DNA from: Dictyostelium discoideum
Lineage: Eukaryota
Length of the DNA stretch: 64,000 bases
Direction: 5' to 3'
Assembly: GCA_000004695.1 (NCBI GenBank)
Contig: CM000154.2
Span: 3,392,001 to 3,456,000, forward strand
The translations under genes and the position numbers were made by a program. Below the pieces are notes generated by a model. The model was given only the letters and a program-made list of their open reading frames with translations, was not told the DNA's origin and did not search any database. Within the stretch, counting starts at the first letter, position 1; each line of letters begins with the position of its first letter. Below are positions 4,185 to 63,281 of the stretch, in pieces.

Positions 4185-4196
4185 ACACACACCCAC
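4185..4196 (+). promoter_or_regulatory. C-box / CA-rich element (ACACACACCCAC), G-box complement type, inside a GC-richer island 4090-4270.
   Basis: The motif ACACACCCA sits in an otherwise A/T-only intergenic region about 270 bp upstream of the small ORF at 4462. It resembles the Dictyostelium CAE/G-box (GBF-type) elements. Confidence 0.3.
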
Positions 4197-18881: not shown

Positions 18882-20057
18882 TTTAATTAAAATATTTATT
18901 AAAACATATGAAAATTTTTGTTATTTTTTTTATAAATAACTATTAATATTATTATTAAGGTGTGTGAATATATTAAAAAAATGGGGTAAAAAAAACAGTG
19001 AGAGATTGTGTATGAATTAAAAAAAAAAAGTGAGAGATTGTGTGTTGGGGTGATTTGTTTTTTTTTTTTTTTTTTTTTTTGTTTTTTTTTATTGAAAAGA
19101 ATAAAATAGTTTTTGAAAAAAAAATGAAATAAATAAAAAAATATATACAAGTGAAAAAAAAAGATAAAGAAAATAAAAAAAAAATAAAAAAATAAAAAAA
19201 ATAAAAAGGATATAAATTAAGTTTCTACAACATGTCTAAAAATAAAAAATATATATAAAAATATAAAAATGTTATAAGCAACACAAGTTAAAAAAACAAA
19301 TAAAAAAAATATATTACTTTCATTGTTCATTTATATTAAGAATAAAAAATAAAAAAAAAAAAAAAATTTTAATTTATTTTTTTCTTTTTATTTTATTTTA
19401 TTTATTTTATTTTATTTTATTGTATTTTATTTTATTTTATTTTAAATGATGTGAAGCAAAATGAATAGAAAAAAAAAAACAATAAAAAAAAAATAATAAT
19501 TAAAAAAAAAAAAAAAAAAAGAAACAGAAAAAAAAAAAATAATAATAATAATAATAAAAATAATAAAAAAAAAAATCTTTTTTATTTAAATGAAATATTT
19601 GAGTTTTTAAATGCGAACCACAAATAAAAAATGTGTTTACTGCTGGTGTTAATGCAATTATCTCATTAATTATTATGAAAATACAAAAAAACAAAAAAAA
19701 AAAAAATATAAAAAAAAAAAAAAAAAAAAACAATAAACAAACGTTTTTGGTTATTCAATATGATTTAAATATTTTGAAAATAATAATAAAATTAAAAAAA
19801 AAATTAAAAAAAAATTAAAAAAATTAAAAAAAATTAAAAAATCATATATCTTTAAAAAAAAAATAAAAATAAAAATAAAAATAAAAAAAAAAAAATAAAA
19901 AAATCAAAAGATTTAAAAAAAAAAAAAAAAAATCATATATCTCTTAAAAAAAAAAAACACAAACTAAAATTTCTTCAATGATATTTAAAAAAAAAAAGTT
20001 ATATTTTAATTTAATTTAAAAAATAAAAAAAAAATAAAAAATAAAAAATAAAAAAAA

Positions 20058-23173: not shown

Positions 23174-23228
23174 ATGGGTATGTTATTATCATCACTCTTT
23201 TACTTTACACACACAACAAAACCTATAT

Positions 23229-23265
<37 letters not shown>

Positions 23266-23377
23266 CCACACGGAGCCTTTTTATAAATTTTTTTAAATAA
23301 ATTTATTTCAATAAAAATAAAAATTTAATAAAAATAAATTTTTTCCTTTTTTTTAAAAAAAAAAAAAAATTAAAAAA

Positions 23378-31664: not shown

Positions 31665-31940
31665 TTTTTGTTGTTGTCCTTTGCACCATTTTTTCCTTTA
31701 TTGTAACGAAATATAATTTACTGCAATTTGTAAATTGTGATTTAAGTTTTTAAAGATAGGGCCCAAGAGAGACAACTTTGAAAGTATTGTTGATTTTATC
31801 TTTTTTTTTTGTTGTTGTTTTGTTTTTGTTCTTTTGAATATTTTGCACCATTTTTTTCCTTTATTGTAACGAAATGTAGTTTGCAAACTGTGATTTAAGT
31901 TTTTAAAGAAAGACAAGGCCCAAGAGAGACGAGTTTGGAT
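31665..31940. repeat. Tandem direct duplication of two ~145-155-bp units inside a GC-richer intergenic island.
   Basis: Unit 1 spans about 31669-31780 and unit 2 about 31811-31937. Both share gttgttg...ttgcaccattttt(t)cctttattgtaacgaaat(a/g)ta...gcaa..tgtgatttaagtttttaaaga.ag..ggcccaagagagac. I aligned the units by eye and estimate about 85% identity. Neither strand carries a convincing ORF. Confidence 0.6.
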
Positions 31941-32778: not shown

Positions 32779-33058
32779 CAACTTTAGAAAAAAACATAAT
32801 TTATTTTAAACCACACACAACACACAAACACTTTTACCAAATTATCAAAAATATTTTTGACAATTTTAGCAATGTCAGTAATTAATTTAAATAAAATTTG
32901 TTTTGACTATTTTTAATTTATTATTTTATTTATTTTTCAATAAAAAAAAAAAAAAAAAAAGTATAAATTAATATTTTATATTTTTATTTTCTTAAATATT
33001 CCAACATTTTTAAATATACAAATAAAAAATTAAATAAAAATAATAATAAAAAAAAAAA

Positions 33059-49522: not shown

Positions 49523-49539
49523 CCCCATTTGGGGTGTAG
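49523..49539 (+). promoter_or_regulatory. G-box-like hairpin element CCCCATTTGGGGTGTAG in the UGPase/aminotransferase divergent promoter.
   Basis: It is the only G/C cluster in the 1.1-kb A/T spacer between the start codons at 49095 (-) and 50183 (+). It contains GGGGTGT (a GBF-type G-box) and a CCCC/GGGG inverted repeat. Confidence 0.35.
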
Positions 49540-52194: not shown

Positions 52195-54235
<2,041 letters not shown>

Positions 54236-54425
54236 TAAAAAAAAAAAAAAAGAAAAAAAAAAAAAAGAAAAAGAAAAGATAAAAAAATAAATAAATTAAA
54301 TAAATAAATAAAATAAATAATTGAATAGATAAATAAAAAAAAAAAAAAATATGATATCATTTTAATATTTTAACAAATGCCAGTCTGTCTAAACTGTATC
54401 ATTTCAATTTTTTTTCAAACTGTTA

Positions 54426-54462
54426 ACCCACACCATCCAAGTGTTAAGTGTGGCAAGTGTGG
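54426..54462 (+). promoter_or_regulatory. G-box / C-box cluster (ACCCACACC ... GTGTGGCAAGTGTGG) about 210 bp upstream of the first FMO-like gene.
   Basis: This GC island lies in a spacer that is otherwise A/T-only. It pairs a CACACC C-box with tandem GTGTGG G-box half-sites of the type bound by Dictyostelium GBF. The ORF-track ORF 54377..54577 that covers it is poly-F junk. Confidence 0.4.
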
Positions 54463-54468
54463 TTGGTC

Positions 54469-54508
<40 letters not shown>

Positions 54509-54670
54509 TTTATTATAATTTTATTTTTTATTTTAATAATACAAAAACATTTTTTTTTTATTTTTAATTCTAATTAGTTGTTTTTTATTTTTTTATTTTT
54601 TAAATTTAATATTATTATTATTTTTTTTTTTTTTTTTCTTTTTTCTTTAAATAATACATAATTATTAAAA

Positions 54671-56375
54671 ATGATAAGCAATAAAAAAGTAGCAGTTATT
54701 GGGGCAGGATTGAGTGGATTATGTTTTTCAAAATATATTAATCAAATTGGGGATTTAGAACCAACAATTTTTGAAAAAACCAATGATATTGGAGGTGCTT
54801 GGTCAAATTCATCAAATAGAAAATCATGGGATAGTTTGAAGTTAAATACAAATCAATTATCAAGTAAGTTTTATTAATTTTTTTTTAATTTTTTATCTTA
54901 TTATAATTATAATTAATAAATTATTAATCCTTTTTTTTTTTTTTTTTTTTTTATTAGTGTCATTTTCAGATTTTCTATTTAAAAATCAATTCCCAAATAA
55001 AGAAGAAATTTTCCCATCAAATAAAACATTTTATGAATATTTAAAAAGTTTTGTTGAAAATTTTGAATTAATAAATTATATAAAATTTAATTCAAATGTT
55101 ATTAAAATTGAAAAGAATGTGGTTGTAGATGAAAATGAAAGTAATTGTAAATGGAAAGTTGTATGGGAATTTAATAATAATAATAACAATAATCAATCAA
55201 TAATTTATTCAGAAATATTTGATTATGTTGTTATTTGTACTGGTGCATTCTCAAAAAGTTCAACAAAGAATGATTTAGAGATTAAATTGAAACAATTTAA
55301 AGGTGATATAATACATAGTGAAAATTATAGAAATCCTGAATTATTAAAAGGAAAGAAAGTGCTTATTGTCGGATCATCATTTTCAGCATGTGAAATTGCA
55401 AATGATGTATGTAAAGAAGTTTCAAAATGTATTCAAATCGGTCATGAAAATTTCTATGCAGTAAATACATTTTTACCAAATGAAGATGGTAAACATATAC
55501 CTTGGGATATGTTATTTTTCACTCGTAAATCAATTTATGAAAAAAATAATAATTATAAAACTGATCAAGAGTTATGGGAAGTTTCAAAGAAAATGTTAAT
55601 ACAAATTTGCCCAAATCAAGATTTATCCAAAAATCCAAATTCTAAAATACCAATTAAAACAACACCTGAAAATCAACCACCAATTGGTTTTACAGTTTCA
55701 AGAAATTATTATGAAAATGTTGAATCTGGTAAAATTATTACATATACAGGTGATAATTATAAAATCCACTCAGTAGATGGTAATTCAATAACATTTTCAA
55801 ATGATAAAGGTGAGGTTAATACTGTTGATAAAATTGATTCAATTATTGTATGTAGTGGATACCAAATAGAGTTCCCATTTTTAGAAAATGATGTTTTGGA
55901 AGATATTTGTTATGATTCAAAAGATCAGTTCTTGCCTATGTGTATTTATGAACATACTTTTCCAAGTAAGTTCAAAAGTATTGCTTTTATTGGTTGTGTT
56001 AAAGGAATATTCTTAACAGAAATTGAAATGTATTGTCGTTGGGTTTCATTAGTATTTTCAGGTAAACTAGAATATCCAAATGATGAAAAATTAAGTCAAG
56101 GTAAAAATGATATTTTAAAATTAAGATCAGTCAGACCTCGTCCACAATTCCCAATTCTTGATTGTGTTTATCATTGTGATAAAATTGCTAAAGAAATTGG
56201 TTGTTTACCTGATTTTGAATCAATTAAAATCAATGATCCTGAATTATATAATAAATTATGGAATGGATTCTTTTGTCAAGCATCATATAATTTAATTGGT
56301 CCTGGTTCAAATCCAACATTAGCAAAAGAAATAATAAATAATTATTATGAAAATTATCAACAATTTAAAAATTAA
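54671..56375 (+). CDS. Flavin-containing monooxygenase (FMO)-like protein, paralogue 1 of 4 in a tandem array. Two exons, about 536 aa.
   Basis: join(54671..54863, 54958..56375). Exon 1 ([22 protein letters not shown]...[13 protein letters not shown]) carries the FAD GxGxxG motif. The donor is TCA A|GTAAGT (54864) and the acceptor is ttattAG (54957); the intron is phase 1 and A+TG gives Met. Exon 2 has the FMO-identifying motif [15 protein letters not shown] (FxGxxxHxxxY) and the NADPH motif [16 protein letters not shown]. Confidence 0.8.
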
Positions 56376-56807
56376 ATAATTTATCAAAAAAAAAAAATAA
56401 ATTCAATTTTTATATATAATAATATATTTGTAATAACAATATGTGATAAAATACCAATTATCTATGAATTTAAAATACTCTCTACTTATAATTATCATCA
56501 TTTATTTAAAAATAATTAAATTAATAAATATTTAATAAGTTAAATATTATTTGTTTATTAAATTATTTTTCTTTTCACAGAATTAAAAAATTTAAATAAT
56601 TAATATTTTAATAAATAAATTATATAAAATTTATAAAACAATAATTTTGAACAATAATTACAAATAAACAAAATTAAAACACAAATAACAAATATTAAAA
56701 ACTGTTACAATAATACATATAATTATTATTTAAATTAACACCACTCTTAAATTATCCTTGGATTCTAACAGAATAAAATATAAAATAAGTTTTTTAAATA
56801 AATAAAA

Positions 56808-56848
<41 letters not shown>

Positions 56849-57114
56849 CTTTAAGATTAAAGTATAAAATAAGAAAAGAAATAAAATAGTTTGAAAAATA
56901 AAATTGGAAGGGGATGAATTGTAATAATTAATAAAAAATATAATGTCATTCTTTAAATTGTATGAAATAAAAAAAAAATATGTGTAAAATTGTGTTTTTT
57001 CAAAAAATTATTAAAGATTGTTAAAAAGTATAAATTTTCAAATTAGAATAAGTATAAAATAAAGAAAAAATAATAAAATAATAATAAAATAATAATATTA
57101 ATAGTAATAATAAT

Positions 57115-57120
<6 letters not shown>

Positions 57121-57196
<76 letters not shown>

Positions 57197-57201
57197 TTAA
57201 T

Positions 57202-57253
<52 letters not shown>
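57121..57253. repeat. (AAT)n intergenic microsatellite of about 40 units, with TA interruptions.
   Basis: Read directly in the spacer between FMO-like genes 1 and 2. Confidence 0.9.
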
Positions 57254-57289
57254 TAGAAATAATAATTTTATTATTATTGTAAAAAGTTT

Positions 57290-57302
57290 GGGGTGAACAC
57301 CC
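57290..57302 (+). promoter_or_regulatory. Palindromic G-box GGGGTGAACACCC about 185 bp upstream of FMO-like gene 2.
   Basis: It is an inverted repeat of GGGTG/CACCC half-sites and the only GC cluster in the spacer. Confidence 0.4.
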
Positions 57303-57476
57303 TAAAAAAAGGTAGGATTATTGTTTTTTTATTTAATTTTTTTTTGGGGAATTTTAAAATTTTTCATTTTAATTTGTTATTTATTTTTTGTATATATTTC
57401 AAATTTATTAAAAATAATAAAAAGAAAAAAGTTTGTACGATTATTGGTAACTATATTTTTTTTAAATTAAAATAAA

Positions 57477-57712
57477 ATGATAAAAAATAAAAAAGTTGCT
57501 ATTATCGGTGCGGGACCTTCTGGATTATGTTTTGCTAAATATATAAACCAAATTGGATATTTAATTCCCACAATTTTTGATAAATCAAATGATTTTGGTG
57601 GTGTTTGGTCAAATTCTACATATAGAAAATCTTGGGATAATTTAAGAACAAACTTTAACCAATTTTCAAGTAATTATATAAAATTTTATTTATAATATTT
57701 TGTTTTATTCTA

Positions 57713-57757
<45 letters not shown>

Positions 57758-59192
57758 TTTTTTTTTTTTTTTTTTTTTTTATTTTAAACAAAAAGCTTCA
57801 TTTTCAGATTTCCCATTTAAAGATAGATTTCCAAGTAAAGGTGAAGTTTTTCCAACTAATCAAGAATTATATGAATATTTTAAATGTTATGTTGAACATT
57901 TTGATTTAATGAAAATTATTAGATTTAATTCTACAATTATTAGTGTTAAAAAATTAAAAGGATCGAGAGAAGATTTTACAAATTGTAAATGGAAAGTTAC
58001 ATGGGTTGAAAATGATAAAACCACATTAACTGAAGTTTTTGATTTTATTGTTGTGGCAAGTGGAATATTCTCTAAAGGTTTTGTATCAAAAGATTTACAA
58101 ATGAAATTAAAAAATTTTAAAGGTAATATTATCCATTCTGAAAATTATAGAAATCCAGACCCGTTAAAAGGAAAGAATGTTGTAGTTTTGGGGTCATCTT
58201 TTTCAGGTTGTGAAATTGCAAATGAAGTTTCAACTGTTACATCAAAATGTTATCAAGTTGGCCATGAAAATTATTATGCAATAAATTCATTTATACCAAA
58301 TGAAAAAGGAGTAGAAGTTCCATGGGAAATGATATTTCATGTTAGAAATTTAAGTTATCAAATTAATCATAACAAATCAATTAAAGAAATTTGGGAAACA
58401 AAAAAAAAGTTTTTATTAGATATTTGTCCAAAACAAGATATCAAAAAGTATCCAAACTCATTATTACCAATTAAAACAACACCAGAAAACCAACCCCCAA
58501 TTGGTATAATTTTTTCAAGAAATTATATTGAAAATGTCGAATCTGGTAAAATTAAAACATTTACAGGTGATAATTATAAAATCCAATCTGTAAATGGTAA
58601 TTCAATAACATTTTCAAATGATAAAGGTGAAATTAATACTGTTGATAATATTGATACTGTTATATTAAGTAGTGGATTTCAAATTGATTTCTCATTCCTA
58701 GATAACGATGTTTTGGAAGATATTTGTTATGAACCTACAGATTCCTTAGTTCCAATGTGTCTTTATGAACATACATTTCCAAGTAAATTTAAAAGTATTG
58801 CTTTTATTGGTTGTTTAAAAGGTGTGTTCCGTTTTGAAGTTGAATTATATTGTCGTTGGGTTTCTTTAGTATTTTCAGGTAAACTAGAATATCCAAATGA
58901 TGAAAAATTAAGTCAAGGTAAAAATGATCTTTTAAAATTAAGATCAATCAGACCTCGTCCACAATTCCCAATTATTGATTGTGTTTATCATTGTGATAAA
59001 ATAGCTAAAGAAATTGGTTGTTTACCTGATTTTGAATCAATTAAAATCAATGATCCTGAATTATATAATAAATTATGGAATGGATTCTTTTGTCAAGCAT
59101 CATATAATTTAATTGGACCTGGTTCGAATCCAACATTAGCAAAAGAAATAATAAATAATTATTATGAAAATTATCAACAATTTAAAAATTAA
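57477..59192 (+). CDS. FMO-like protein, paralogue 2 of 4. Two exons, about 529 aa.
   Basis: join(57477..57669, 57796..59192). The donor is TCA A|GTAATT (57670) and the acceptor is aaaAG (57794-57795); the intron is phase 1 and contains (ATT)n and poly-T. A+CT gives Thr, so the protein reads ...NQFSS|TSFSDFPFKD. This keeps the SFSDF block shared with all four paralogues. The motifs are [15 protein letters not shown] and KNVVVLGSSFSGCEIA. The last ~110 codons are about 97% nucleotide-identical to paralogue 1. Confidence 0.8.
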
Positions 59193-59316
59193 AAAAATAA
59201 ATAAATAAATTATCCTAATATTTTAATTACTTTTGTATCTGTAATTTATCCAATTTATTAAATTATTTTTTTAAACTATTTAAATCATCAAAATTGTCTC
59301 TTTTTTTTAATTTGGT

Positions 59317-59363
<47 letters not shown>

Positions 59364-59457
59364 TAAGCTAAAAAAATAAAAAAGATAATAAAAATTATAA
59401 TGATTATATACATTTATATATATATTTATATATATATTAATATTTTTTTTTAATATT

Positions 59458-59515
59458 GGGTGAAATTAAATTATTAAGTGTAATAATTTCCTAGTGGTGT
59501 GGGTGAAATTAAATT
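59458..59515 (+). promoter_or_regulatory. Direct repeat of GGGTGAAATTAAATT, the second copy preceded by GTGGTGTGGGTG, about 230 bp upstream of FMO-like gene 3. This is a G-box-type element.
   Basis: Two copies of a G-rich 15-mer lie 43 bp apart. GTGTGGGTG is a GBF-type G-box. Confidence 0.35.
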
Positions 59516-59741
59516 CTTGTGTTTAACTTTTTTTATTAACCACCTTAAATCTCGATCTAAATTTATTAATAATAATCATTTCAGAAAAAAAAATTATAAT
59601 AATTAGTTTTTTTTTGTTTTTTTTTATTTTTCTTTAGACCCCCTTTTTTTTTTTTTAAAAAAAAAAAAAATATATTATTTGTTATTTTTTATTTTTATTT
59701 CTCTTTAAACCCCTTTTTTATTTTATTTCTAACTATTTACA

Positions 59742-60179
59742 ATGATAACAAATAATGATAATAAAAATAAAAATAATTTTAAAAAAGTTGCTATAATTGG
59801 ATTTGGACCTGCAGGAATTTGTTCTACAAAGTCAGCAATTGAAAATGGATTAAACCCAACAGTTTTTGAAATGTCGTCAGATTTAGGTGGAGTATGGAGT
59901 AAATCAAATGGAAAGGTTTGGGATAATTTAACAACAAATGTTTCAAGATATACAATGAGTTTTTCTGATTTTTTAAATGAAGAAATAAATGATGAACCAT
60001 ATAATAATGATGAAAATAATATGTATCCTCACCATTCTTCAATTTATAAATATTTAAATAAATATGTTGATCATTTCAATTTAAAGAAATTTGTAAAATT
60101 TAATTCAAAAGTTATAAAAGTAGAAAAGGTTTTTAAAACAAATGATAATTTTAAATTAAATGTAACATATAAATCAACA

Positions 60180-60238
<59 letters not shown>

Positions 60239-61424
60239 AGGTGATGATGATTTTACAAGTGAAATTTTTGATTTTTTAATTGTTTGTACTGGTGTATTTT
60301 CAGAACCACAAGAATGTGGATTATATGAAAATGAATTAAAACAATTCACAGGTAAAATTATACATTCACAAGATTATAAAAATAATAATGATAGATCTGG
60401 AAAATCAATAGTTGTATTAGGTTCATCAATGTCAGCATGTGAAATTACTTCAGAAGTTTCCAAGGTAACTTCAAGATGCTATCATGTTGGTCATGAAGTA
60501 CATCATGTTTATAATAAACATTTACCATATAGAAAAAATCAAATTGCACCATTGGATTGTGTAATTTATCAGAGAAAGGAGGCATATGAAAGACAAGATT
60601 TACCAAGGGAAGAGTTTTTAAAACAAAAAAATAAAATGAATAAATTGTATTGCCCTAAACAAGATTCAGATAGATATCCAAATTCAAAGATTGCAATTGC
60701 ACCAGGATACAAATCTATGGGTTTAGTAATATCATCAGAGTATGTTACTCAATTTGAAAATGGCTCAATATCAGTATTTTGTGGTGACCAATTTACAATA
60801 TCCTCGTCGTGTGGAAAGAGTGTAACTTTTTCAAATTGTAAAGGTGATAGTCATACAGTGGAGGATATTGATGAGATTATAATTTGTAATGGATATAAAA
60901 CTGATTTATCATTTTTTGAAAAAAGTGTACTAGACGCTCTGGATTATAAACCAGAAGATACGAAAAGACCAATATTACTATACAGAAATCTATTTGCAAA
61001 AGATTTGAAAAATATTGGTTTTGCATCTTTTTTTAGAGGTTTATTCTTTTGTGAAATGGAGTTAATTACAAGATGGATGTGTTTGGTTTTTACTGGTAAT
61101 CATCCATATCCAAATTATTATCAATATAAAAATGGTATAAAAGATAGAAATTTTAAAATTAATCTTGATAATGCTCCACAATATTTAATTGCTGGGTCAA
61201 CAACTTATTGTGATTTGGTTGCATTAGAAATTGGTGTTTTACCTGATTTTGATAAATTAAAAATAACAGATCCAATATTATATGATCTCATTTGGAATGG
61301 TCATTTTACACCTGCAATATATAGATTAGTTGGACCTGGTTCAAACCCTAAACTTGCAAAAGAACTAATTGAAAAAGTAAATAACAATTATAATATTTAC
61401 ATAAAAAAAATAAATAATAAATAA
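59742..61424 (+). CDS. FMO-like protein, paralogue 3 of 4. Single exon, 560 aa, with an internal poly-N insert.
   Basis: ATG verified at 59742. The motifs are VAIIGFGPAGICS, FTGKIIHSQDYKNN and KSIVVLGSSMSACEIT. The SFSDF region is contiguous here, with no intron. Confidence 0.8.
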
Positions 61425-61667
61425 TAATTTTTTAAAAGTATGTTTTTTTTTTTTTTTTAATTATTTATTTATGTAAATATTATTTATTATTTTAATATTT
61501 CAAGATTGTTAAAATTTCTTATTTTAATTTTAGATTTTAAAAATATCTGATTTTTTTTTTTTTTAACTTTTGAAATTTTTTATTTTTGTTTTTGATTTTA
61601 AAAATATTTTTATTTTTCATTTTTTTTTTTTTTTTTTTCATCAAAAAAAAAAAAAAATTAATATGAA

Positions 61668-63281
61668 ATGATAAATAATAATAATAAAACAGTTGCAATT
61701 ATAGGATTTGGACCAGCAGGTATATGTTCAACAAAATCATCAATTGAAAATGGATTAATACCAACAGTATTTGAAATGTCATCAGAATTGGGTGGTGTTT
61801 GGAATCCTTCAATTGGAAAATGTTGGGATAATCTTACAACCAATGTCTCAAGATATGTTATGTGTTTTTCAGATTTTGATTATCATAATGATGATTATGA
61901 TATTTTTCCAAATTATAAAACAGTATATCAATATCTAATAAACTATGTGAATCATTTCCAATTAAAAAAATATGTAGAATTTAATTCAAAAGTTATTAAA
62001 GTTGAAAGAATTGATTCTGATTCCAATACTATAGTAACAACAACCTCGGAGGAAAAAGAAGAAAAAGATAAAATAATTAAAATAACTTGGATAAATAGTA
62101 ATGATAATAAAACCTATTCAAAAATATTTGATTATTTAATAGTTGCAACTGGATTATTTTCAAAACCACAAAATTCAACAATGTATGAAAATGAATTAAA
62201 ACAATTTACAGGTAAAATTATTCATTCACAAGATTATAAAAATAATGAAATTTATAAAGAAAAGAATGTTTTAGTATTAGGTTCATCAACATCAGCATGT
62301 GAAATATCAGCAGAGATATCAATGGTAACCAAGAAATGTATAATTGTGGGTCATGAAAATTCATATATCTATAGTAAACTTTTACCAAATGAAAACGGTT
62401 CAAAATTAGTACCATTAGATTCCTTACTTTTTCAAAGATCAAAATCATATGAACAACAATCATTACCAAAAGATGAATTTTCAAAATTAAAAAAACAAAT
62501 GAATTTAAAATATTGTCCAAATCAAAGTAAAGAAATTAATCCAACCTCAAAGATAATTGTAAATACACCAACTGATAAAACATTAGGATTTGTAGCATCT
62601 TCATCATATATAGAACAAGTTGAAAATGGTTTTATTTCAGTTCATTGTGGTAATGAATTCACAATAAAATCATCATCAAAGAAATCAATCAAAATTTCAA
62701 ATTGTTTAGGTGAAACTCATACAGAAGATAACATTGATTTCGTTATACTTTGTAATGGATATCAACCAGATTTATCATTTTTTGATGAAACCATATTAAA
62801 TTCAATTGATTATTTACCATCAGATTCAAAAAGACCACTTTGTTTATATAAGAATATATTTGCTCCAAATTCTAAAAATATAGCATTCATTTCATTCTTT
62901 AGAAGTTTATTTGTTGCAGAAGTTGAATTAATGTCAAGAATGATAACAATGATATTTAGTTCAAAAATTCCATATCCAACTGAATTTGAAATTAAAAATG
63001 GTTTTATAAATAGAGGAAATAATAATATTAATAATAATAATGATCCACCTTATTTTTTAGTAGCTGGTTCAACAGTTTTATGTGATCAAATTGCAAAGGA
63101 GATTGGTGTATTACCAGATTTTAAAAAATTAAAACAATCAGACCCAAAATTGTATGATCAATTATGGAATGGTTATTTCACTCCTGCGACATATCGTTTA
63201 GTTGGTAATGGTTCAAATCCAAAAGTTGCAAAAGAAATGATTGAAAAAGTTAATAAAATATATGATAAACTTTGTAATTAA
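61668..63281 (+). CDS. FMO-like protein, paralogue 4 of 4. Single exon, 537 aa.
   Basis: ATG verified at 61668. The motifs are VAIIGFGPAGICS, FTGKIIHSQDYKNNE and KNVLVLGSSTSACEIS. It is intronless, and is most similar to paralogue 3. Confidence 0.8.
   Translation: MINNNNKTVAIIGFGPAGICSTKSSIENGLIPTVFEMSSELGGVWNPSIGKCWDNLTTNVSRYVMCFSDFDYHNDDYDIFPNYKTVYQYLINYVNHFQLKKYVEFNSKVIKVERIDSDSNTIVTTTSEEKEEKDKIIKITWINSNDNKTYSKIFDYLIVATGLFSKPQNSTMYENELKQFTGKIIHSQDYKNNEIYKEKNVLVLGSSTSACEISAEISMVTKKCIIVGHENSYIYSKLLPNENGSKLVPLDSLLFQRSKSYEQQSLPKDEFSKLKKQMNLKYCPNQSKEINPTSKIIVNTPTDKTLGFVASSSYIEQVENGFISVHCGNEFTIKSSSKKSIKISNCLGETHTEDNIDFVILCNGYQPDLSFFDETILNSIDYLPSDSKRPLCLYKNIFAPNSKNIAFISFFRSLFVAEVELMSRMITMIFSSKIPYPTEFEIKNGFINRGNNNINNNNDPPYFLVAGSTVLCDQIAKEIGVLPDFKKLKQSDPKLYDQLWNGYFTPATYRLVGNGSNPKVAKEMIEKVNKIYDKLCN

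What the first reader, a model, noticed from the sequence alone, without database searches (positions are those of the whole stretch)
54426..59515. G-box (GBF-type) elements recur about 200 bp upstream of three of the four FMO-like genes
In a genome whose spacers are almost pure A/T, each of the first three FMO-like genes has one compact G/C cluster 185-250 bp upstream of its ATG. The clusters are ACCCACACC...GTGTGGCAAGTGTGG (54426-54462), the palindrome GGGGTGAACACCC (57290-57302), and a duplicated GGGTGAAATTAAATT with GTGGTGTGGGTG (59458-59515). These resemble the GTGTGG/CACACC G-box/CAE elements through which GBF activates post-aggregative Dictyostelium genes. This suggests the array is developmentally co-regulated. 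The fourth gene lacks such an element in its spacer.
Basis: partly seen in the sequence, partly recalled or inferred. Interest (0 to 1): 0.5.

Follow-up and report, generated by a model that had tools for sequence, protein, structure and literature searches.

The report
G-box-like promoter boxes upstream of FMO genes
Three short G/C-rich boxes really do sit about 200 bp upstream of three tandem Dictyostelium flavin-monooxygenase genes, and two of them fit the binding consensus of the developmental activator GBF, but such boxes are equally common in neighbouring spacers and the four genes are not switched on together, so this is an ordinary, untested promoter-motif prediction.

Summary
The window is Dictyostelium discoideum AX4. 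It carries four tandem FMO genes: g2 is fmoF (DDB_G0289927) and g4 is DDB_G0289931. All the quoted strings are at the stated coordinates.

Clusters 1 and 3 each contain strict matches to the published GBF half-site (T/G)G(T/G)G(T/G)G(T/G). They share the exact 9-mer GGTGTGGGT, in opposite orientation, about 240 bp from each ATG. Cluster 2, the palindrome, reaches only 6/7 on each arm.

Half-sites are about 10-fold above composition-matched random sequence. However, their density in the FMO spacers (0.86 clusters/kb) equals that in the rest of the window's non-coding DNA (0.86/kb).

In syntenic arrays from D. citrinum, D. firmibasis, D. cf. discoideum and a divergent D. discoideum strain:
- the CA-rich core of cluster 1 is a real footprint;
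- cluster 3 is kept only within D. discoideum;
- the palindrome is not conserved.

Published RNA-seq shows the following:
- DDB_G0289925 (probably g1) rises at 7-9 h.
- DDB_G0289929 (g3, by elimination) rises at 8-9 h, the post-aggregative period in which tgrB1/tgrC1 rise (6 h).
- fmoF rises only at 20-22 h and is stalk-enriched.
- g4 appears in no differential-expression list.

So GBF-type control is plausible for g1 and g3, but co-regulation of the whole array is not supported, and GBF dependence remains untested.

The parts
54421..54434 (-). Cluster 1 core. It is the CA-rich box TGTTAACCCACACC, which reads GGTGTGGGT on the minus strand and gives two overlapping strict GBF half-sites. It lies 237-250 bp upstream of the g1 ATG.
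   Evidence: locate it. Its 8-mers TGTTAACC, TTAACCCA and ACCCACAC recur in 3-4 of 4 orthologous promoters, against 1-2 of 14 non-orthologous FMO promoters. It is retained in L006, L001, L005 and the L003 g1 remnant, and is degenerate in L002.
54447..54466 (+). Cluster 1 distal part, AGTGTGGCAAGTGTGGTTGG. It holds two 6/7 near-half-sites, inverted relative to the CA box.
   Evidence: Only partly conserved: ACTFIZ has GTGGTAAGTGAAA and ACTFIW has GTGTTGCAAGTGTGGTTG. It looks like a lineage-specific duplication of AAGTGTGG.
54368..54408 (+). Conserved block TTAACAAATGCCAGTCTGTCTAAACTGTATCATTTC just upstream of cluster 1.
   Evidence: It is near-identical between AX4 and ACTFIZ. The 8-mers around GTCTGTCTAA occur in 3 of 4 orthologous promoters and 0-1 of 14 controls.
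57290..57302 (.). Cluster 2, the palindrome GGGGTGAACACCC (arms GGGTG/CACCC, 2-nt spacer), 175-187 bp upstream of g2 (fmoF). It has no strict GBF half-site.
   Evidence: It is degraded to GAGGGAGAACACC in ACTFIW copy b and replaced by GGGGGTGAAAAC...GGGGTGG in copy a. D. citrinum has GGGGTC(T)CC(C)C instead. None of its 8-mers is conserved.
59457..59526 (+). Cluster 3. It is a 27-nt direct repeat (TGGGTGAAATTAAATT...) at 43-bp spacing that encloses the G-box core.
   Evidence: family D3, 85% identity. It is conserved in ACTFIW. ACTFIZ keeps the two-copy GG(T/G)T(C/G)AAATT..AAATT layout without a strict half-site.
59494..59505 (+). Cluster 3 G-box core GTGGTGTGGGTG. It contains GGTGTGGGT, the same 9-mer as cluster 1 in the opposite orientation, 238-246 bp upstream of the g3 ATG.
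   Evidence: these are the only two exact copies in 64 kb. Identical in ACTFIW. D. citrinum has (A/T)TGTGTGGTG and D. firmibasis has GTGACACAC in the g3 spacer. Reduced to GTGGTTG in ACTFIZ.
59586..59727 (+). A 71-nt tandem duplication carrying AGACCCCCTTTT and AAACCCCTTTT boxes, 30-105 bp upstream of the g3 ATG. It is a candidate core-promoter element.
   Evidence: family D1. CCCC(C)TTTT is present in all five other lineages, and AAACCCCT occurs in 4 of 5 against 1 of 13 controls.
54671..56375 (+). g1, an FMO-like gene (536 aa, intron 54864-54957), equal to XP_635985 / Q54GT4. It is probably DDB_G0289925.
   Evidence: The ID is inferred from neighbouring IDs and is not proven.
57477..59193 (+). 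g2, which is fmoF (DDB_G0289927; 529 aa, intron 57670-57795).
   Evidence: (exact protein match), for the name and expression.
59742..61424 (+). g3, an FMO-like gene (560-aa ORF). It is DDB_G0289929 by elimination.
   Evidence: A newer assembly annotates it as 556 aa over a 1799-nt span.
61668..63281 (+). g4, an FMO-like gene (DDB_G0289931; 537 aa).
61422..61667 (+). The g4 spacer (246 bp, 7% GC). It has no G-box-like element and contains a 61-nt tandem duplication.
   Evidence: The ACTFIZ orthologue does carry GGTTGTGTGT, GCCACCC and GTCCCCC boxes.

Best explanation
The three clusters are promoter-region G/T-rich (CA-rich) boxes of the kind that dot Dictyostelium intergenic DNA.

The boxes upstream of g1 (core TGTTAACCCACACC) and g3 (core GTGGTGTGGGTG) are most likely real upstream activating elements of the G-box/CAE class. 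They share the 9-mer GGTGTGGGT, which reads as two overlapping GBF half-sites, about 240 bp from each ATG. The inferred mechanism is that the zinc-finger activator GBF, or a factor with the same G/T-rich specificity, binds them when aggregates form and switches these two genes on at 7-9 h.

The palindrome upstream of g2 (fmoF) is a lineage-specific, rapidly evolving G-rich box. It does not confer post-aggregative timing, because fmoF comes on at 20-22 h in stalk cells. g4 has no box and no detected developmental change.

The array is therefore a set of duplicates with diverged cis-regulation, not one co-regulated unit.

Shown here: the sequences, the consensus fit, the background frequency, the conservation pattern, and the expression timing of the gene IDs. 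Inferred: that the boxes are functional, that GBF is the binding factor, and that g1 is DDB_G0289925.
For: - Consensus: the GBF response element is (T/G)G(T/G)G(T/G)G(T/G), and functional promoters carry pairs of sites (PMC2257962). GbfA binds G-rich motifs in both prestalk and prespore genes (PMC6598861).
- Strict matches occur in clusters 1 and 3 only.
- The exact 9-mer GGTGTGGGT occurs only twice in 64 kb, in these two promoters, at -245..-237 and -246..-238.
- Half-sites are about 10-fold above the composition-matched expectation.
- The 8-mers of the cluster 1 core recur in 3-4 of 4 orthologous promoters against 1-2 of 14 controls (sequences).
- G/T-rich elements occur in the g3 spacer of every lineage.
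- Timing (PMC4403905, file S7, sheet filter_UP): DDB_G0289925 is up at Hr07, 08 and 09, and DDB_G0289929 at Hr08 and 09, just after tgrB1 and tgrC1 (Hr06). DDB_G0289927 (fmoF) is up only at Hr22.
- Parikh 2010 values reprinted in PMC6198379 file S5 show fmoF at 0-1.3 until 16 h, then 18 at 20 h and 28 at 24 h. Its stalk value is 48 TPM and its vegetative value 0.
- DDB_G0289931 is absent from those lists.
- Box quality therefore tracks timing across the four genes.
Against: - There is no enrichment over the local background: 0.86 against 0.86 half-site clusters per kb. About 38% of non-coding segments have a half-site, and many other spacers carry longer CA/GT runs. A consensus match is therefore weakly predictive.
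- The strict G-box of cluster 3 is lost in D. cf. discoideum ACTFIZ, while its AT-rich flanks and the two-copy layout persist. The conserved determinant there may not be the G-box.
- The GTGTGG repeats of cluster 1 are lineage-specific.
- The cluster 1 core is also intact in strain ACTFIW, where g1 is truncated after exon 1. Conservation at that short distance says nothing about function.
- The identity of g1 with DDB_G0289925 is unproven. UniProt and XP numbering leave room for DDB_G0289923.
- The correlation rests on only four genes.
- No binding, reporter or gbfA-null data could be examined.
Confidence: 0.45

Rival explanations
1. The boxes are functional cis-elements, but a factor other than GBF reads them. 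In cluster 3 the conserved unit would be the repeated GG(G/T)T(G/C)AAATT..AAATT module, a G-rich stub plus an AT element. In cluster 1 it would be TGTTAACC(C)ACA together with the upstream block GCCAGTCTGTCTAAACTG. The resemblance to GBF would then be incidental.
For: In ACTFIZ the strict G-box of cluster 3 is gone, but the two-copy GGTT(C/G)AAATT...AAATTCTT layout and the flanks TTAA(G/A)TGTAA(T/A)AATTTCC are kept. The 27-nt repeat unit extends well beyond the G-rich part. The best-conserved 8-mers in the g1 spacer include TGTTAACC and GTCTGTCT, which are not G-box sequence. The cotC promoter needs an AT-rich region and CudA sites besides GBF sites (PMC3253789).
Against: No alternative factor with a matching published motif could be identified with the papers available. 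The shared exact 9-mer GGTGTGGGT in g1 and g3 is pure G-box consensus. Induction at 7-9 h fits GBF.
Confidence: 0.25
2. The boxes are non-functional by-products of how this genome's spacers evolve, through slippage or duplication of short GT/CA-rich strings and neutral turnover. The fit to a seven-base degenerate consensus would then be chance at the local background rate.
For: Density in the FMO spacers equals the background. The consensus is very degenerate. GTGTGGCAAGTGTGG looks like a local duplication that is absent from ACTFIZ. The palindrome is not conserved between two D. discoideum strains. Tandem duplications are frequent in these spacers. Such elements appear and disappear between lineages, for example in the ACTFIZ g4 spacer.
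Against: The cluster 1 core recurs in the orthologous promoters of species whose spacers are otherwise unalignable. Half-sites are 9-11 times above the Markov expectation throughout non-coding DNA, which argues that the class as a whole is under selection. Box presence and quality track the expression timing of the four genes.
Confidence: 0.2
3. The G/C clusters belong to something other than a promoter, such as a small non-coding RNA gene, a tRNA- or transposon-derived fragment, or a structured 3' end of the upstream gene.
For: Cluster 1 lies only about 190 bp past the stop of the upstream lunapark-like gene. It contains an inverted repeat (CCACAC / GTGTGG), and cluster 2 is a palindrome.
Against: There is no Rfam match at E<=1 across 54200-61700. 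There are no tRNA genes in the window. No ORF in the g1-g2 spacer is credible. The stems are only 5-6 bp long.
Confidence: 0.03

Closest known systems
GBF-binding G-boxes / CA-rich elements (CAEs) of Dictyostelium post-aggregative promoters (cprB, cotC, tgrC1/lagC, the sigN family)
   Same: Short G/T-rich (CA-rich) runs that fit (T/G)G(T/G)G(T/G)G(T/G). They lie a few hundred bp upstream of the ATG in otherwise A/T-rich spacers and occur in either orientation. Two of the linked genes are induced at 7-9 h, the period in which known post-aggregative genes come on.
   Different: Each FMO promoter has only one strict G/T run plus 6/7 neighbours, whereas the cotC and sigN promoters are described as having multiple or paired sites. 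There are no binding, cAMP-induction or gbfA-null data. Cluster 2 fails the consensus and its gene is a late stalk gene. The boxes are not enriched over neighbouring spacers.
sigN gene clusters of D. discoideum (PMC2257962): tandem or inverted duplicated genes whose shared promoters carry conserved pairs of GBF sites
   Same: A recently duplicated gene family arranged in a cluster, with G-rich boxes in the spacers and developmental induction.
   Different: The sigN promoters are alignable paralogues with the same boxes conserved, and all are induced together at 10-12 h. The FMO spacers are not alignable with each other. Their boxes differ in sequence, orientation and context, and the genes differ in timing (7-9 h, 20-22 h, or none).
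The cotC minimal prespore promoter: a GBF site plus an AT element (the title of Powell-Coffman et al. 1994, cited in PMC3253789)
   Same: In cluster 3 a G-rich core abuts an AT-rich string (GGGTGAAATTAAATT), and the composite is what is repeated and conserved.
   Different: The sequence of the cotC AT element could not be consulted (the paper is not held), so the resemblance is architectural only. The cell-type specificity of g3 is unknown.

Membership tests
GBF-binding G-box / CAE | At least one match to the half-site consensus (T/G)G(T/G)G(T/G)G(T/G) (PMC2257962) | tested here: inconclusive
   Met for cluster 1 (GGTGTGG and TGTGGGT on the minus strand, 54426-54434) and for cluster 3 (59496-59504). 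Not met for cluster 2, where both arms are 6/7.
GBF-binding G-box / CAE | Two half-sites close together, in any relative orientation. Pairs of sites are described in PMC2257962. The strict requirement for two sites is recalled from Schnitzler 1994 and Powell-Coffman 1994, which could not be consulted. | tested here: inconclusive
   Cluster 1 has one 9-nt strict run plus two 6/7 sites within 37 nt. Cluster 3 has one 9-nt strict run plus 6/7 sites, one overlapping and one 33 nt upstream. Cluster 2 has two 6/7 arms.
GBF-binding G-box / CAE | Physical binding by GBF (EMSA or ChIP) | not testable with these tools
   No binding data for these promoters were found in the searchable literature.
GBF-binding G-box / CAE | The linked gene is induced after aggregation (about 6-12 h) | tested here: inconclusive
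   DDB_G0289925 (probably g1) is up at Hr07-09 and DDB_G0289929 (g3) at Hr08-09, so the feature is met for them. fmoF (g2) is up only at Hr22, so it is not met. g4 is in no list.
GBF-binding G-box / CAE | Expression depends on gbfA and on extracellular cAMP | not tested
   gbfA-null RNA-seq exists (PMC8327917), but its tables are not held.
   0.86 against 0.86 clusters per kb within the window. Pooled over six lineages, 1.07 against 0.56 per kb, p=0.058.
GBF-binding G-box / CAE | Evolutionary retention in orthologous promoters | tested here: inconclusive
   The cluster 1 core is retained in 4 of 5 other lineages. Cluster 3 is retained only within D. discoideum, although some G/T-rich element occurs in every g3 spacer. 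Cluster 2 is not retained.

The most novel reading that the evidence does not exclude
The FMO array may be a compact natural example of cis-regulatory divergence after tandem duplication. On this reading, g1 and g3, which belong to the two old paralogue lineages, independently carry the same GGTGTGGGT box at the same distance from the ATG in opposite orientations, and both are switched on as aggregates form. The young duplicate g2 (fmoF) has swapped this for a fast-evolving palindrome and become a late stalk gene, and g4 has neither box nor developmental regulation. Between wild strains and sister species the boxes are gained, lost and duplicated: ACTFIW has two g2 copies in different box states and a truncated g1 that still has its promoter, and ACTFIZ has boxes upstream of g4. 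That variation would make box-to-timing relationships testable by simple promoter swaps.
Probability: 0.25. Interest if true: 0.35.

Novelty: new member of a known kind. Interest (0 to 1): 0.2.

Why it matters
If confirmed, this would add two flavin-monooxygenase genes to the GBF regulon. It would also give a small, naturally varying test bed (four paralogues in six sequenced lineages) for how G-box presence, number and orientation set developmental timing in Dictyostelium. As it stands, it is a routine motif prediction. It illustrates that a seven-base degenerate consensus has little predictive value on its own in this genome, where about 40% of spacers contain a match.

Tried and rejected
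- Proving that g1 is DDB_G0289925:
  - A protein search with an exon of the upstream lunapark-like gene found nothing at E<=1e-20.
  - That gene is multi-exon, so I did not attempt an exact look-up of its protein.
  - UniProt, XP and EAL numbering give conflicting step counts.
  - The ID therefore remains an inference.
- Finding expression or gbfA-null tables: the supplements of PMC8327917, PMC2864575, PMC12142906 and PMC12750705 are not held. Only PMC6198379 file S5 and PMC4403905 file S7 gave data.
- Consulting the primary GBF-site papers and the review (PMC359110, PMC3586674, PMC1500839): none is held.
- Naming an alternative factor: the MrfA paper gives no motif.
- MAFFT alignment of spacers across species is unreliable in this A/T-rich DNA. 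I replaced it with a k-mer recurrence test that uses non-orthologous promoters as controls.
- An RNA-gene or tRNA-remnant explanation was rejected.
- A hidden gene in the 1.1-kb g1-g2 spacer was rejected. It has no ATG ORF longer than 32 aa, and the longest ORF is 60 aa with a GTG start.
- There is no full-text literature on these gene IDs or on Dictyostelium FMO regulation.

Full report
**What the locus is.** The window is 22% GC with near-pure A/T spacers. Exact protein look-ups place it in Dictyostelium discoideum AX4. Four FMO-like genes lie head-to-tail on the + strand.
- g1 has its ATG at 54671 and an intron at 54864-54957. It equals XP_635985 / Q54GT4.
- g2 has its ATG at 57477 and an intron at 57670-57795. 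It equals DDB_G0289927, which a dictyBase-derived table names fmoF.
- g3 runs 59742-61424.
- g4 runs 61668-63281 and equals DDB_G0289931.
- g3 is DDB_G0289929 by elimination.
- g1 is probably DDB_G0289925, but I could not prove it. Accession numbering leaves DDB_G0289923 possible.
- At the protein level g1 and g2 are 70% identical, g3 and g4 are 54% identical, and the two pairs are about 40% identical to each other.

**Observation.** Every quoted string is at its stated coordinates.
- The clusters lie 209-245, 175-187 and 227-284 bp upstream of the respective ATGs.
- Using a criterion of at least 8 G/C in 12 nt, each of the first three spacers has exactly one such island and the g4 spacer has none.
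- The duplicated 15-mer in cluster 3 is really a 27-nt direct repeat at 43-bp spacing.
- The exact 9-mer GGTGTGGGT occurs only twice in the 64-kb window. One copy is in cluster 1 (minus strand, 54426-54434) and the other in cluster 3 (plus strand, 59496-59504).
- The two copies lie 237-245 and 238-246 bp from their ATGs.

**Fit to the GBF consensus.**
- The only consensus I could document is (T/G)G(T/G)G(T/G)G(T/G), with functional promoters carrying pairs of sites (PMC2257962).
- GbfA binds G-rich motifs of both prestalk and prespore genes (PMC6598861).
- Cluster 1 contains two overlapping strict matches plus two 6/7 matches (AGTGTGG, twice).
- Cluster 3 contains two overlapping strict matches plus 6/7 matches (TGGGTGA).
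- Cluster 2 has none: GGGGTGA and AGGGTGT are each 6/7.

**Is it more than chance?** The answer depends on the null model.
- Against a first-order Markov model of the window's non-coding DNA, half-sites are strongly over-represented everywhere. Non-coding DNA as a whole has 25 observed against 2.8 expected, and the FMO spacers have 4 against 0.35.
- Against the real background the FMO spacers are ordinary, at 0.86 half-site clusters per kb both inside and outside them.
- Nine of 24 non-coding segments carry at least one half-site.
- At least eight other spacers hold equal or longer CA/GT runs. Examples are 32795-32835, 19000-19060, 4185-4195, 23207-23278 and 39765-39780.
- Pooling six lineages gives 1.07 against 0.56 per kb (p=0.058, and the lineages are not independent).
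- All three FMO G/C islands are G-box-like, against 2 of 11 elsewhere. By my own calculation this gives a Fisher p of about 0.03. The motif set was defined after the fact, and the background includes small exons.

**Comparative evidence.** I retrieved the syntenic arrays from six other assemblies.
- Two are D. citrinum assemblies (L001, L002).
- L003 is a divergent D. discoideum strain, ACTFIW.
- L005 is D. firmibasis.
- L006 is D. cf. discoideum ACTFIZ.
- L007 is a second D. discoideum assembly (GCA_054883475.1), identical to the window wherever I aligned it.
- D. firmibasis and ACTFIZ have three genes, with a single g1/g2-type gene, so the g1/g2 duplication is young.
- ACTFIW has two g2-type copies. 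Its g1 is truncated after exon 1 but keeps its promoter.

Spacers cannot be aligned across species, so I used a k-mer recurrence test with non-orthologous FMO promoters as controls.
- In the g1 spacer the conserved G/C-containing 8-mers fall into two places. One is GTCTGTCTAA (54383-54392) and the other is cluster 1.
- In cluster 1, TGTTAACC recurs in 4 of 4 orthologous promoters. TTAACCCA, ACCCACAC and TCCAAGTG each recur in 3 of 4, against 0-2 of 14 controls.
- The cluster 1 CA core reads as follows:
  - AX4: AACCCACACC
  - ACTFIW: AACCCACACC
  - ACTFIZ: AACCACACC
  - one D. citrinum assembly: AACCCACACAC
  - D. firmibasis: AACACCCAACC
  - the other D. citrinum assembly: the degenerate AACCAACAC
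- The GTGTGG repeats downstream of the core are lineage-specific.
- For g2, no 8-mer of the palindrome is conserved. The ACTFIW copies read GAGGGAGAACACC and GGGGGTGAAAAC...GGGGTGG, and D. citrinum has GGGGTC(T)CC(C)C.
- For g3, the strict G-box is identical in ACTFIW but shrinks to GTGGTTG in ACTFIZ, while the AT-rich flanks and the two-copy layout persist.
- D. citrinum carries (A/T)TGTGTGGTG and D. firmibasis carries GTGACACAC in the g3 spacer.
- The only g3-spacer 8-mers present in nearly all lineages belong to AAACCCC(C)TTTT boxes close to the ATG.
- The g4 spacer has no box in AX4, but ACTFIZ carries GGTTGTGTGT, GCCACCC and GTCCCCC there.
- Overall the pattern is rapid turnover of G/T-rich boxes with one real footprint, the cluster 1 core.

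**Expression.**
- Data from Parikh et al. 2010, reprinted in PMC6198379 file S5, give fmoF (g2) as 0, 0.08, 1.3, 1.1, 1.2, 18 and 28 at 0, 4, 8, 12, 16, 20 and 24 h.
- The same table gives fmoF 48 TPM in stalk, 7.8 in cup, 0.13 in spore and 0 in vegetative cells. fmoF is therefore a late stalk gene.
- In the hourly filter-development series of PMC4403905 (file S7, sheet filter_UP), DDB_G0289925 is listed as up at Hr07, Hr08 and Hr09.
- DDB_G0289929 is listed as up at Hr08 and Hr09, and DDB_G0289927 only at Hr22.
- tgrB1 and tgrC1/lagC appear at Hr06. lagC expression is GBF-dependent according to PMC2257962.
- DDB_G0289931 occurs in none of the lists.
- The two genes with strict G-boxes, assuming g1 is DDB_G0289925, come on in the post-aggregative period. 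The palindrome gene comes on 12 h later, and the box-less gene shows no change.
- This correlation is suggestive, but it rests on four genes and one inferred ID.
- A gbfA-null RNA-seq time course exists (PMC8327917), but its tables are not held.

**Alternatives.**
- No Rfam family matches the region at E<=1.
- The window has no tRNA gene.
- No ORF in the 1.1-kb g1-g2 spacer is credible.
- A different factor reading a composite element remains a live rival, because the composite is conserved in ACTFIZ without the strict G-box. The composite would be a G-rich stub plus AAATT..AAATT in cluster 3, or TGTTAACC plus the upstream GCCAGTCTGTCTAAACTG block in cluster 1.
- Neutral origin is most plausible for cluster 2 and for the GTGTGG repeats of cluster 1.

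**Verdict.**
GBF-type control is a reasonable but unproven hypothesis for g1 and g3. It is unlikely for g2, and co-regulation of the whole array is contradicted by the timing data.
- The boxes are not special relative to neighbouring spacers.
- This is a new but ordinary instance of a known class of promoter element, of low interest. The exception is its possible use as a small natural system for studying promoter divergence among tandem duplicates.

Noticed in passing
window 56035-56378 vs 58856-59196: The last ~340 nt of the g1 and g2 coding regions are 97-99% identical, whereas the rest of the genes are 60-87% identical. This looks like recent 3' gene conversion between the tandem paralogues.
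   Followed up: partly
L003 2271-7348: In D. discoideum strain ACTFIW the g1 promoter and exon 1 survive (91% identity; exon 1 is 95% identical at the protein level). The rest of g1 is replaced by about 4.5 kb that carries a 492-aa gene on the minus strand with an apparently hydrophobic N-terminus. Two g2-type FMO copies follow.
   Followed up: partly
L005 8092-13425; L006 7643-13766: D. firmibasis and D. cf. discoideum ACTFIZ have three-gene FMO arrays with a single g1/g2-type gene. The g1/g2 duplication is therefore confined to the AX4, ACTFIW and D. citrinum assemblies examined here.
   Followed up: partly
window 59586-59727: A 71-nt tandem duplication carries AGACCCCCTTTT and AAACCCCTTTT boxes 30-105 bp upstream of the g3 ATG. 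A CCCC(C)TTTT box is present upstream of g3 in every lineage examined, in two or three copies in most. It may be a core-promoter element.
   Followed up: partly
window 61482-61604: The g4 spacer contains a 61-nt tandem duplication. The string AAATTTCTTATTTT..GATTTT..AAAATATCT recurs in the g4 spacers of D. citrinum and ACTFIW.
   Followed up: no
window 49523-49537: A near-palindrome, CCCCATTTGGGGTGT, lies in the divergent spacer between the UDP-glucose pyrophosphorylase-like and class-V aminotransferase-like genes. It is conserved almost exactly in ACTFIZ (L006 2325-2336). It also contains a GBF-consensus half-site.
   Followed up: no
window 32795-32835, 19000-19060, 4185-4195, 23207-23278, 39765-39780: Other spacers carry CA/GT-rich runs as long as or longer than the FMO ones. 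Examples are CCACACACAACACACAAACAC upstream of the XRN-like gene and a repeated GTGAGAGATTGTGT followed by GGGGTG.
   Followed up: no
window 57088-57260: An (AAT)n microsatellite of about 170 nt ends about 30 bp upstream of the cluster 2 palindrome. ACTFIW has (AAT)n or (ATT)n tracts at the corresponding places.
   Followed up: no
window 31758-31771 and 31917-31928: A G/C-rich string, (G)GGCCCAAGAGAGAC, is repeated about 160 bp apart in non-coding sequence. It has no resemblance to a G-box.
   Followed up: no
window 59742-61424: The uninterrupted 560-aa translation of g3 is not in the protein collection. A newer D. discoideum assembly annotates the gene as 556 aa over a 1799-nt span, which implies an intron. 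The ORF contains a long poly-Asn tract.
   Followed up: no
window 42234-43421: The window also carries an atg5 homologue, an XRN-type exonuclease, a FNIP-repeat protein, a CitMHS transporter and a PTEN-C2/PH phosphatase-like gene. Gene order around the FMO array is conserved in all the species examined.
   Followed up: no
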